Both the position numbers and the translations under genes were made by a program. From Saccostrea echinata (taxonomy: Eukaryota), in contig NW_026889776.1 in NCBI RefSeq assembly GCF_033153115.1, positions 12,524,001 through 12,588,000 of the forward strand: a stretch of DNA of 64,000 nt. The letters run 5' to 3'. The notes below the pieces were generated by a model. That model saw only the letters and a program-made list of their open reading frames with translations. It had not been told where the DNA came from and made no database searches. Below, piece after piece: positions 55,353-62,879 of the stretch; the first letter of the stretch is position 1; every line of letters starts with the position of its first letter.

Positions 55353-55380
55353 ACTTTGAGATAGCTTAATGGTAACTTAA

Positions 55381-55982
55381 AGCTATCGCGCAAGAATATA
55401 AAGCGTTATGCGTATTACATGCGATACGGTGTCGGCACTATTTCTCTTCTCTACTAATATCTCAATTCCATATATAAGACGTTTGGTCATCGTCACGGGC
55501 TGATGCACACTGACCTAAAAGGCCTAGTGTATACATTGATAGGTATGTCAAACCTGTACTGTCTATGGGGATTTCTATTTCATTCAAGTAATACAAAATG
55601 TAACACTAATCGTAAATCAGAAATGAGTAAAAATAATAATTAGTAAAAAATAAATAAAATCAGGATTGAGTAAATAATGTTTTGACACACACTAATAACT
55701 TACACGTTATTACAATCGAACTGCAGTGAGAGACACACATCGAACACTACGAAAGTGGACAATTTGTGGAGACAGTACAAGTTTGATGGATCCAACGGTA
55801 AGTAGAAATAAGCATAAAAACGATCAGAATAAAGTATCCAAATTCTTTGACGAAATACATCCAGAACACATTCACGCCCTTCCGACATGTTGACAAGTCA
55901 CTTGACAATCCAGTTTTGCTAAAAATAGATAACATAATTTCCATTTTCGTGCGCATGCCTCTCAAAAGGATCGGTTATTATT
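55381..55982 (+). repeat. Left terminal inverted repeat (602 bp)
   Basis: Reverse complement of 62027-62628. The only mismatches noticed are 2 nt near the inner end. The ORF track shows identical mirrored ORFs (55747-/62044+, 55700-/62121+). Confidence 0.95.
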
Positions 55983-58900
55983 TTTTTATTCATTGAATAT
56001 ATTCTATAATTCAAATACATCCTCCTGCTAATTATTTAAAGGTTTTGCAAGAAGTATTTAAAACAAAGAGAAAATGGTCTGTCTGTATTTTATGTTCTAC
56101 ACATTTTAACTAGTCTGTATGATATTCTGCAGAACTCCGGGGGGGGGGGGGGGGGGCGGCAGAATTATATATATTACATGAATGTGAGGGTGCATGTTTT
56201 CAGATGAATTCTTGCCTTTTTTTCATTCTTCAATGGGGTTAATAGGCAAAATGTAAGCCGGTATGTTTGAGGAAATTTCACTTATATATATATATATAAG
56301 CGTACAATTTAAACGTACAAAAATCAGATGTCGAAATAAAGTATAAGCTTGGACACCTGAATTTGTGTAGAATTTCAATCACTTTTATTTATAAAGGTTT
56401 CTGGGAACATGATGGAATCTGAGGAAGAGACTTCAGATACAGAGGTGATAATTTTTATTTTTTTATTTTTATTATTTTTTTTATGGTCTGCCCTCTGAAA
56501 AAGGATCTCTGTCAGAGTTTCAATTTCATTTATAAAAAAAAAAAAGAAGGCCACCAACCCTGAACCCCTTTGAAAAGATGTAAACTGATATAACTTTGTA
56601 GTCATTGTGTGTAGAAAAAAACAAAAGAAACAAACAAACAAAAATCATCCTGCATCTGATTGATTACAGTGTATGAATTCATCTATATTATAATCATTTC
56701 TTCGCCCTTTTCATGTACTATGATTTTTTTAAAAATCAATTTCTACAAAAAAGTAGCTTCTGTACTATCATTATTATATGAAGCGGGAAAATGGATTAAA
56801 TACTTTTTGGAACAATCCATGCACTTTATGCCTTATAAAGAATTTGTGTGAAATAAAAATATTCATATGTATGCATGTAGTCATTTTTTAAGGAAATAAA
56901 GGTTCAATATCTCTCAAATTATATTCTTTCATCGTTAATAACTCTATTATTCTCAATAAAAATATGCATGTAGGGATGTGAAAGTACAGTGGAAAAATTA
57001 CTACGAGAAATATTTGGTGACGATGATGCAAACGAGACCATGGATCCAGAAGATGTAGATACAGAGGGAGAAAACGACGCAGATGAAGCTATGTGGCACG
57101 AGTATGAGCCCTCTCTCTCTCTCTCTCTGCGCCACATAATCAAAAGCGCTTATAAAACCTTTATCTATATTTATATACGCTACATTACTCATTTATGTTT
57201 GAAGGAGAAACGAGCAAGACGAGGAAATCCATCTTGTAAAGGACAGGAGGTTTATCGTCGGCGAAAGGGAAATTCTCTACCTTATAGAAAGATCAACGTG
57301 TTCAGAGTGTGGAGAGCGCATTGATAATTCTACCATTCAGGAGGGGGAGAAGATTGCTGCTGGTATAAAATACCAGTACCTCTGCGTTGTATGTATACAA
57401 AAAAGGAAAAAAATCCAGGTTTCCAATCATTTTTGTGTGATATTTCCATTGATCAAAACATTTATATACGAGAGGTGTCTTATACGGAAGCGAAATAGTT
57501 CACTGACTAGCCTTATTCTGTAAAAAAGAAAATAAAATGCAATAGAATGAATTTTTTAAAAAGTAAATTGATTATTAGACATAACTACGTTTTGCATTGA
57601 CCAATTTGAGATCCGGACATATTATAAAAGAATTTAAAATGTATAAGATGATTATAAAAAAATACATGTACACTTTAAAAAAAACAATCCTGCTTCTATT
57701 TTACAAAGGATAAACAAAAGTAGAACAGAAGGGTTCATAAAAATAGCATTAGGTGGAGGAAAGTAAATTGAAGAATTTCTTTTATTCTTCTTTTATTGCA
57801 TGAATATACAAGACAGGAAAAGGGGTGGGGTATAAACTTACACTTATCTGATCATCTCAATGATTTTATACTAATTTTGGATGGAAGTTGATTTTATACA
57901 TTTTTGGAAAATAGAATTCCCACAAGAACAAATGGATTTCGACCCCTTTTTATGGTGGGAAGAGTCTGGTGGCGCTGCTAATACAATTGATGGTGCTGTT
58001 ATCTGGCGCGTCTTGGAGTAAGTTTGCCACAGGAGCGAAGTTTATAAACTTAGTAACAGGGTGTTCCCGTGCATTTTACCACCATCAACTTCTGTATAAG
58101 GTAATTTTTTTTTAAAATTTTCAATCAATAATATTTCCAATTAAAAAGGAAATTCAAAGTAGACAAACTAGATATTACTCTCTTTGCAGGAGGCAATAAA
58201 CAGTTTTTTTGAAAAACATCTGACTAATGTGCATAAAAAATTAGCAGGCAAGCCATTGAGCCTAGCAGTTGACGTCCGATATGACTCACCAGGTACAGGA
58301 GATATTTACTCTAATAGCTAAATGAATGTCAGGTTTTAGATATACTGAATAAACAGTAATCTCTTATTTAAAAAAATAGTGATTTTTTATACAAGTATGT
58401 TACAGCTTTTTCAAATAGTAAGGGGGGGGGTTGAGAAAAAACTGAAAAATTTTGACAATAGAGAAATGAAAGAAAAATGAAGGGAACAGTCCCCACCCAC
58501 CTACTGGTGCTACTAGGATCATGCGCGGATCCAGGATTTTTTTCCAGGGGGGGGGGGGGATTCCACCCCAGTCAAAAAAATCCAACCCAGAAATTTGTTG
58601 ACAAGCAAAAAAAAAAATGTAAACTCGCCGCCCAAACGTGAAAAACCTATATTTCTTGAGGGGGGGGGGGGGGGGGGTTAGTGGTTGACTTCTTACATTT
58701 GACTTTTCGTACCAACTTGACACAGGTCCGCGTTTTCGAGGGGGGTCTGCGTTTTCTTAGGGGGGTCCAAGGTCTCTTTTTACTTGGTTTAGTATATAAA
58801 TTTAATAACTCTGCAAATTCCAGGGGGTCCGGACCCCCCCCCCCTCTAGATCCGCGCATGAGGATATGTCTGTCATGACAGCAGTAAAAGTCGTGAATTG

Positions 58901-61427: not shown

Positions 61428-62223
61428 CAAACAGCTTATTTTGTAAAAACTTATTTCTCTTAAATACACGTATATATCAGGTCATGCATTTATAATTACC
61501 ATTTAAATTATTGGGTGTTTTTTGTTTTTTGTTTTTGTTTTTTGTATGAAGAAAAACGGTATGTACATGTTTTGTGCTGTAGGTTTCTGTCAAACATTAG
61601 TTATTATGGATTTTGTACGGCGTTATTTTCGTACATATATGGAAGAAATATTTTACATGTGTAATAACAGTACAAGTTGTACATATTTGTTGGAAACTTT
61701 TTGATGTTTGTACTATCTAATTATTTTAATGAAGAAAAGCTTTATTTTGATCAAGAAAAATACAACTTCAATATACGTGTACATATGTGTTTTGTCCTTT
61801 TTCATATTAGTTAGGAAAAAAGGAGGCCTACAAATATTTTTCTATAACCTCCAATATTTTTTTTTACTCAATTTTTCTTCACATCTGTAGCTAACAGGAT
61901 CTGGGTAAAAATCGATTACAATTACATGAGTAACATTTAAAACCACACCTTACAATGCGGTGAATCCCGCTTTTATATATTATTACTTTTTTTCAAAGAT
62001 AAAATGCAATCATCAGAAAAATTGTCAATAATAACCGATCCCATTGAGAGGCATGCGCACGAAAATGGAAATTATGTTATCTATTTTTAGCAAAACTGGA
62101 TTGTCAAGTGACTTGTCAACATGTCGGAAGGGCGTGAATGTGTTCTGGATGTATTTCGTCAAAGAATTTGGATACTTTATTCTGATCGTTTTTATGCTTA
62201 TTTCTACTTACCGTTGGATCCAT
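60496..62223 (-). CDS. KolX-like protein (about 255 aa): N-terminal 9-Cys CXC-like cluster plus a C-terminal domain resembling the P2X7 cytoplasmic ballast / Nanor Cys-rich domain
   Basis: Phase-0 exons 62223-62212 (MDPT), 61355-61095 (INCCACQNRGQCKSCVCRRRGCTNCRNANC...AVSLQ) and 60990-60496 (..WCCCGKC..NICC..CITT..F..LCL..FRNQAYRNFVLWQHGRLGAGRRVVVPSCVC..IR..FP..YKGY). Confidence 0.8.
61394..61424. repeat. (GA)n microsatellite in KolX intron 1
   Basis: Pure GA run. Confidence 0.9.
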
Positions 62224-62628
62224 CAAACTTGTACTGTCTCCACAAATTGTCCACTTTCGTAGTGTTCGATGTGTGTCTCTCACTGCAGTTCGATTGTAAT
62301 AACGTGTAAGTTATTAGTGTGTGTCAAAACATTATTTACTCAATCCTGATTTTATTTATTTTTTACTAATTATTATTTTTACTCATTTCTGATTTACGAT
62401 TAGTGTTACATTTTGTATTACTTGAATGAAATAGAAATCCCCATAGACAGTACAGGTTTGACATACCTATCAATGTATACACTAGGCCTTTTAGGTCAGT
62501 GTGCATCAGCCCGTGACGATGACCAAACGTCTTATATATGGAATTGAGATATTAGTAGAGAAGAGAAATAGTGCCGACACCGTATCGCATGTAATACGCA
62601 TAACGCTTTATATTCTTGCGCGATAGCT
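62027..62628 (-). repeat. Right terminal inverted repeat (602 bp)
   Basis: Reverse complement of 55381-55982. Confidence 0.95.
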
Positions 62629-62879
62629 TTAATAATGGTGTGTTTTTTGCTTAAAAATAGCTTAAAGGTTCTTCATGGTGACTTAAAGACGACCATTAGC
62701 CACCATTAATGACCTATAAGCCATCATTAAGCCACGCTTAAAGGAAATATTTCATCTTGTGTTAAAGTAAGGCAAAGTACCACACTAAACTAATAATGTA
62801 GTAGTGTACACAATAGTGCAATTTCGATCCGTTAGGGTTTGCAATTACTTGGGAATTGAACTATCAAAACACTTCAAAC

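What the first reader, a model, noticed from the sequence alone, without database searches (positions are those of the whole stretch)
55377..62632. Young, potentially active autonomous Kolobok with an intron-rich transposase and very long TIRs
The TTAA TSD is perfect, the TIRs are nearly identical over 602 bp, and both spliced ORFs are free of stops, with the D-D-E candidates retained. The first catalytic motif reads VDVRYDSPG rather than the usual GDGRxDSPG. Ten introns in a transposase is high. Every other coding TE in the window is decayed. TTAA specificity makes it a possible genome-engineering tool (inference).
Basis: partly seen in the sequence, partly recalled or inferred. Interest (0 to 1): 0.7.

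Follow-up and report, generated by a model that had tools for sequence, protein, structure and literature searches.

The report
Oyster Kolobok with interlocked, end-fed genes
An intact, recently multiplied oyster jumping gene of the known Kolobok family whose unusually long 602-base end repeats carry the same first exon for both of its genes, likely because one end was copied over the other, and whose two genes overlap on opposite strands; that it still jumps is untested.

Summary
Real and correctly placed: a 7,248-bp Kolobok (55381-62628), TTAA duplication, AG..CT ends, 602-bp TIRs with 2 mismatches, open transposase and KolX frames. Five more full-length copies lie at other TTAA sites; 3 of the 6 are intact, so it is mobile DNA, not a domesticated gene. 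Corrections: VDVRYD[S/T]PG is the normal motif of this mollusc lineage (Repbase Kolobok-14_CGi has it); spliced contigs show 11 coding introns, not 10, the last skipping KolX's main exon; TIR identity reflects left/right homogenisation, not age, and the nearest sibling differs by 1.4%. What is unusual: each TIR holds a spliced 5' intron and a four-codon start exon, so both genes begin identically. A sister family in the same genome has 11-bp TIRs, the micro-exon only at the KolX end, and the same antisense overlap, so the long TIR is likely the KolX end copied onto the transposase end. TIRs group by copy, not by side. Present activity is untested. The scan noted the interlocked genes before on another piece of this genome. 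New variant of a known kind; interest 0.45.

The parts
55377..55380 (.). Left TTAA target site duplication
   Evidence: single TTAA in paralogous empty host repeats
55381..55982 (+). Left TIR, 602 bp, begins AG
55543..55726 (+). 184-bp GT..AG intron in the 5' untranslated part, inside the TIR (mirror image in the right TIR; contigs cannot tell which side was spliced)
   Evidence: joint 55540>55725 in runs X2 and X4; ends read
55786..55797 (+). Transposase exon 1: four codons starting with ATG, inside the left TIR
   Evidence: joint to 56397 in run X1
56397..61161 (+). Transposase exons 2-12: 56397-56444, 56974-57101, 57205-57388, 57915-58100, 58190-58292, 58909-59124, 59231-59477, 59572-59649, 59767-60074, 60313-60477, 61136-61161 (566 aa with exon 1)
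   Evidence: 10 of 11 coding joints listed (intron 2 not listed)
58271..58273 (+). First catalytic Asp (D214)
   Evidence: D in 107 of 108 aligned rows
59094..59096 (+). Second catalytic Asp (D283)
   Evidence: D in 108 of 108
59266..59277 (+). DxxH signature (D305-H308)
   Evidence: D 105, H 105 of 108
59840..59842 (+). Catalytic Glu (E426)
   Evidence: E in 107 of 108
60478..61135 (+). Transposase intron 11 (658 bp), which holds KolX exon 3 on the other strand
   Evidence: joint in 4 of 4 runs
60496..60990 (-). KolX exon 3: P2X7 cytoplasmic ballast domain
   Evidence: PF20478 E 2.6e-18; joint 60990>61095 in X1 and X2
61095..61355 (-). KolX exon 2: nine-cysteine cluster and linker; 61136-61355 overlaps the last transposase exon antisense
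   Evidence: contigs run from 61135 to 61386 in X3 and X4
62212..62223 (-). KolX exon 1: the same four-codon ATG exon, inside the right TIR
62027..62628 (-). Right TIR, 602 bp, ends CT
62629..62632 (.). Right TTAA target site duplication

Best explanation
It is an intact two-gene Kolobok DNA transposon of an oyster, with copies at several TTAA sites, that likely moves by cut-and-paste through its DDE transposase, and whose 602-bp terminal repeats likely arose when the KolX end, with its first exons and predicted promoter, was copied over the transposase end. Shown: structure, open frames, dispersal, splicing of family transcripts, the start exon in both TIRs, KolX's main exon inside the last transposase intron, and TIRs that group by copy rather than by side. 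Inferred: (a) the transposase binds the TIR tips, excises the element and inserts it at TTAA, as for other C/DxxH DDE enzymes; (b) recombination or conversion between the two arms first extended the repeat and now keeps the arms alike; (c) both genes are therefore fired inward from identical promoters, as in maize MuDR, and because their transcription units interlock, they likely damp each other by polymerase collision or a 220-nt sense/antisense duplex; (d) KolX is a zinc-binding helper or regulator of transposition. The lineage was under selection for transposase function recently; whether this copy moves today is untested.
For: Ends and duplication. Copies: 27 TIR matches (lower bound); of 13 stretches fetched, 7 have both ends with TTAA on both sides in unrelated flanks. 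Of 6 full-length copies (window, L021-L024, L026) 3 keep both frames open. Transposase window vs L021: 10 synonymous, 7 non-synonymous codons; vs L022: 17 and 8, against 357 and 1344 sites, binomial p 7e-4 and 6e-7 (the two tests share the window branch). Catalytic residues; model of sibling protein P0001 at pLDDT 93.8 puts the Asp residues on or just after core strands and the Glu on a helix, best folds ISCth4, Hermes, P element. Splicing. Direction of TIR growth: sister family (P0014; G000 C29 and C19 copies) has 11-bp TIRs, unlike ends, an ATG four-codon GT micro-exon 259 bp in from the KolX end and the transposase ATG in a later exon; here the transposase keeps two in-frame ATGs in exon 2 while KolX has no other ATG before residue 71. 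Overlap conserved: same acceptor at the antisense of the KolX P-E-N codons in the sister family. Homogenisation: substitutions private to both arms of one copy: window 1 (plus a shortened A-run), L026 4, L027 8, none in 5 other copies; 6 sites fixed on both sides in 12 young versus 4 old arms; L026 arms form a clade 97/92.
Against: No transposition was observed. No copy closer than 1.4% in this assembly. Reads were Logan contigs of 4 runs (at most 3 samples, 2 studies, RNA status guessed), unstranded and not assignable to this copy; the deepest contigs in X1, X2 and X3 carry +1, +2 and -1 A in an A-run near the transposase end, and X2 has a 5-base insertion in the core, so much of the transcript comes from altered copies. 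The joint from the right TIR to KolX exon 2 and transposase intron 2 were not seen. P0019 equals my KolX model letter for letter and is probably the annotation of this copy, so it is not independent. No start site was mapped; one X1 contig runs from the very start of the TIR through the TIR intron, so read-in from flanks is possible. The direction of TIR growth rests on one outgroup family at about 60% protein identity; the older, 75% alike subfamily (L031, L032) has lost its left end. No THAP domain was found. KolX selection is untestable with 5-6 changes.
Confidence: 0.75

Rival explanations
1. An intact but resting copy: the family spread recently, but this copy is an older side branch that no longer moves, and the transcripts are read-in from flanks or come from other copies.
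For: Window copy differs from L021-L024 at 59-60 of 3081 non-coding sites while those differ from each other at 15-19; many transcript contigs carry frameshifts; no exact empty allele among 15 pattern matches in the assembly.
Against: Excess of synonymous change on the path to this copy; run X1 holds spliced contigs that match this copy at nearly all sites where other runs differ, and one TIR contig identical over 421 bases whose first 25 letters are unlike this flank, a weak hint of a sibling elsewhere.
Confidence: 0.4
2. The near-perfect TIR match is an assembly or polishing artefact, not homogenisation.
For: 600-bp inverted repeats can be merged by short-read polishing (own knowledge); the window's arms are identical over 585 bases.
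Against: Other copies in the same assembly keep 3-6 left/right substitutions; L026 and L027 share 4 and 8 private sites between arms while still differing at many others, which merging would not give; the shortened A-run is present in a spliced X1 contig.
Confidence: 0.1
3. Long TIRs with a shared start exon are the old state of this lineage, or came from the transposase end, and the short-TIR sister family is the derived one.
For: Only one outgroup family examined; no DNA similarity between its ends and this TIR.
Against: Ten Xenopus Kolobok copies are tabulated with 16-base, imperfect terminal matches (PMC6004289 section 15); the micro-exon sits at the KolX end only in the sister family.
Confidence: 0.15
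4. A domesticated host gene pair.
For: Many introns, purifying selection, transcripts; Kolobok domestication is common in Xenopus (PMC6004289 passages).
Against: Intact ends, exact TTAA duplication inside another repeat, and copies in unrelated flanks.
Confidence: 0.03

Closest known systems
Kolobok-14_CGi (Repbase; Pacific oyster), row in Data S5 of Kojima and Bao 2022, PMC9587614
   Same: Same DVRYD[S/T]PG, SDAS, LDIWH, WYCC and AIENF motifs; the row reads like database proteins P0015/P0016, which are 57% identical to sibling protein P0001.
   Different: A separate family. Its Repbase entry (TIR length, exons) could not be seen. The likely counterpart in this genome (P0014 family) has 11-bp TIRs and no shared start exon.
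Kol0 (Kolobok0) lineage: transposase plus KolX (PMC9587614)
   Same: TTAA duplication, RR..YY ends, DDE with DxxH, second gene with the P2X7 ballast domain.
   Different: 602-bp TIRs holding exons, 11 coding introns, no THAP hit, a nine-cysteine cluster in front of the KolX ballast domain, interlocked genes; none of these is mentioned in the parts of the paper I read.
Maize MuDR (PMC3440606, passages)
   Same: Two convergent genes, transposase plus accessory gene of unclear function, transcribed from long TIRs (about 215 bp there), with antisense RNA.
   Different: Other superfamily; MuDR antisense comes from failed termination, here the overlap is built into the exon plan; here the TIR also holds the start codon.
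Drosophila Galileo (PMC3573991, PMC2775673, passages)
   Same: Long TIRs extended by recruiting internal sequence through recombination or conversion between arms.
   Different: P superfamily, one gene, internally repetitive TIRs; no shared coding exon in the passages read.

Membership tests
Kolobok superfamily | TTAA 4-bp target site duplication | tested here: met
   definition from PMC9587614 background
Kolobok superfamily | Termini 5'-RR and YY-3' | tested here: met
   AG..CT
Kolobok superfamily | DDD/E transposase with C/DxxH signature | tested here: met
Kolobok superfamily | Zinc finger between second D and E | tested here: met
   Cys/His positions conserved (H214, H219, C226, H228 of P0001 in at least 90% of 108 rows); zinc binding itself not shown
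Kolobok superfamily | N-terminal THAP domain ('usually' present, PMC6004289; not in the definition of PMC9587614) | tested here: not met
   No THAP hit in 8 transposase exon frames or in the full-length relatives P0014 and P0058; treated as common, not defining
Kol0 lineage | Second gene KolX with P2X7 ballast fold | tested here: met
   PF20478 E 1.4e-18
Kol0 lineage | Placement in the Kol0 clade of the transposase tree | not tested
   Published alignment was read but not put into a tree; figure not held
KolobokP | Long terminal direct repeats and His-Me finger nuclease | tested here: not met
   Long repeats are inverted; second gene is KolX
piggyBac | TTAA duplication with ends other than RR..YY and a piggyBac transposase | tested here: not met
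   Ends AG..CT; protein aligns with Kolobok; no piggyBac Pfam hit
Active autonomous element | Own proteins mobilise the element now | not testable with these tools
   Only indirect signs:

The most novel reading that the evidence does not exclude
A living DNA transposon that wired its transposase and its KolX helper to one duplicated promoter and start exon, keeps the two copies identical by exchange between its arms, and uses the conserved antisense interlock as a self-limiting switch in which KolX controls transposition; it would be the first Kolobok shown to jump and the handle on what the ancestor of the P2X7 tail does.
Probability: 0.25. Interest if true: 0.7.

Novelty: new variant of a known kind. 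Interest (0 to 1): 0.45.

Why it matters
KolX has no known function and is proposed as the source of the vertebrate P2X7 receptor tail (PMC9587614, passage). An intact, spliced, multi-copy element with corrected gene models makes its role testable: excision with and without KolX. My searches (listings only for the last two) listed no paper assaying a Kolobok; subscription journals and Repbase are not covered. The pair of families in one genome (11-bp versus 602-bp TIRs, same genes) is a clean case of how a terminal repeat grows, captures a start exon and then evolves in concert. It also warns that TIR identity does not date a DNA transposon.

Tried and rejected
Transposase-KolX complex prediction: no verdict, score 0.00, alignments not used; no evidence either way. 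Metagenome contigs with KolX: 56 pattern matches, none confirmed. Run search: no holder on record as RNA; 4 of 7 listed runs were laid, on 55300-61450 only, so the right TIR and KolX's first joint are unexamined. Bacterial promoter scan of the TIR: not applicable, at chance level. Rfam on 54000-64000: nothing. Pfam on single transposase exons: nothing significant. Left end of the older subfamily L031/L032: not found in about 16 kb each. Motif look-ups in the supplement: the exact S-form of the motif was absent, the T-form present; one search returned only KolobokP headers. An off-by-one last exon gave false stops, corrected; loose patterns left several TIR sites uncalled and were replaced by the printed alignment. 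The 36 'private' sites of L027's left arm include non-homologous tail and were not used. A candidate exon at 57709-57763 was dropped: wrong phase, and contigs skip it. First word search of earlier findings: nothing.

Full report
Observation. The element spans 55381-62628 between two TTAA, with arms matching over 602 bp except positions 586-587. It sits inside a short multi-copy repeat; paralogues of that repeat carry one TTAA at this place (15 pattern matches, all with one mismatch; 7 loci compared), so the duplication is exact. Protein records closest to its products are named from Saccostrea oysters.

Genes. From splice signals I built a transposase on the + strand and KolX on the - strand. 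Logan contigs of 4 runs (at most 3 samples, 2 studies; RNA status guessed by the tool, but the joints skip GT..AG introns exactly) list 10 of the 11 transposase coding joints, KolX's second joint and a 184-bp intron inside the TIR (one row hidden, intron 2 lies by a skipped repeat). The eleventh joint, 60477 to 61136, is in all 4 runs. It removes the stop that ends the ten-intron model, jumps over KolX exon 3 and lands inside KolX exon 2 on the other strand; contigs continue to at least 61386. The protein is 566 aa; the two models differ only in the last few residues, and one database model (P0053) ends in the unspliced way. Both genes start with the same four-codon ATG exon, one copy in each TIR; the left joint is seen in X1, the right one was not examined in reads, though database proteins P0019 and P0056 have it.

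Transposase. In an alignment of 108 proteins (10 of the 18 hits and 98 of the 147 new ids, chosen for coverage) D214, D283 and E426 are kept in 107, 108 and 107 rows and DxxH in 105. The residue after the first Asp is Gly in 74, Ala in 17, Val in 12: the Val form marks a mollusc sub-lineage, which includes Kolobok-14_CGi in the published alignment (PMC9587614 supplement 3). The model of sibling protein P0001 (pLDDT 93.8) has RNase H order and finds ISCth4 (E 1.3e-4), Hermes and P element transposases. No THAP hit. KolX matches PF20478 and has a nine-cysteine cluster in front, shared with P0030 and P0047 and without a Pfam name.

Copies and age. The TIR has 27 matches in the genome, a lower bound. 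Of 13 stretches fetched, 7 have both ends in TTAA within unrelated flanks, 1 has both ends with decayed flanks, 2 are one end of what looks like one locus, 2 are an older 75% alike subfamily, 1 is a weak remnant. Of 6 full-length copies, the window, L022 and L024 are open in both genes; L021 has a stop at 389, L023 a changed TIR start codon and a late +1, L026 frameshifts. L021-L024 differ from each other at 4-13 of 2359 coding and 15-19 of 3081 non-coding sites, and from the window at 21-28 and 59-60. So the window copy is a side branch, not the youngest. Synonymous changes are in excess on the path to it (10:7 and 17:8; p 7e-4, 6e-7), as expected if its ancestors had to transpose.

TIRs evolve in concert. 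Over the first 524 positions, substitutions private to both arms of one copy number 1 in the window (plus a six-A run seen in no other young arm), 4 in L026, 8 in L027 and 0 in L021-L025; 6 sites are fixed on both sides in 12 young against 4 old arms; only positions 586, 587 and 601 are fixed left/right differences among 9 and 9 arms. In the tree of 19 arms the left and right labels need 4 changes, L026's arms pair at 97/92, and no bootstrap tree of 200 separates left from right. Exchange between arms is the simplest cause; such exchange and TIR extension are proposed for Galileo (PMC3573991, passages).

Origin of the long TIR. A sister family in this genome (P0014, about 60% identical; two copies 98% alike) has the same exon layout and gene order but 11-bp TIRs and unlike ends. 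Its KolX end carries an ATG four-codon GT micro-exon at 259 bp (predicted from sequence), its transposase ATG lies in a later exon, and its last transposase exon uses the same acceptor, the antisense of the KolX P-E-N codons. So the interlock is old, and the shared start exon is likely new: the KolX end was copied over the left end. This rests on one outgroup.

Mechanism, inferred. Cut-and-paste at TTAA by the DDE enzyme; both genes fired inward from identical TIR promoters, as described for MuDR (PMC3440606, passages); interlocked units that likely limit each other through collision or a 220-nt duplex; KolX a zinc-binding helper. None of these steps was measured. Against a simple 'active' reading: many transcript contigs carry indels in an A-run near the transposase end or in the core, and no start site is mapped.

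Literature seen. PMC9587614: abstract and background, section 10, passages, supplement passages and the last part of file 3. PMC6004289: passages and section 15. PMC3440606, PMC2775673, PMC3573991: passages. Others: listings only. 'KolX' occurs in one relevant paper of the library. In what I read, long TIRs, shared exons or nesting in Kol0 are not described; Repbase entries and figure S6 could not be seen and may cover them.

Verdict. A genuine, intact, recently spread Kol0-type Kolobok; family, motif and helper gene are known; the end architecture is a new variant. Interest 0.45.

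Noticed in passing
window 55041-55380 and 62629-62765: The host is a short palindromic multi-copy repeat rich in TTAA, interrupted twice: by the Kolobok and by the insert below.
   Followed up: partly
window 55092-55352: 260-bp insert flanked by a 12-bp direct repeat (55080-55091, 55353-55364), with an A/C-rich tail and very high contig depth; looks like a mollusc SINE (name recalled, no Rfam hit).
   Followed up: partly
window 58521-58860: Small element with inverted ends and G runs inside transposase intron 6; multi-copy by loose ends.
   Followed up: no
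window 60457-60464: A-run near the transposase end is hypervariable: +1 in X1 and L023, +2 in X2, -1 in X3, changing only the tail after the catalytic core.
   Followed up: partly
window 61254-61337 (- strand): Nine-cysteine cluster at the KolX N-terminus, conserved in P0030 and P0047, no Pfam match; spacing recalls CXC-type zinc clusters (recalled).
   Followed up: partly
L043-L044 (G000 C29:31140471-31148742) and L045-L046 (C19): Second Kolobok family, 8.3 kb, 11-bp TIRs, TTAA, two copies 98% alike; the C19 copy has a 2.5-kb insertion.
   Followed up: partly
L025 6749-9440: A 2.7-kb insertion inside one TIR after base 35, plus a 1-kb deletion over KolX.
   Followed up: no
window 63037-63836; 13585-14672; 43147-43709; 45302-45905; 46935-49018: Tandem arrays of 138-169 bp units, typical of oyster satellite or Helitron-borne repeats (recalled).
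   Followed up: no
window 17804-18679 (+): 291-codon Ser/Thr-rich frame ending in a hydrophobic stretch, like a mucin-type membrane protein exon.
   Followed up: no
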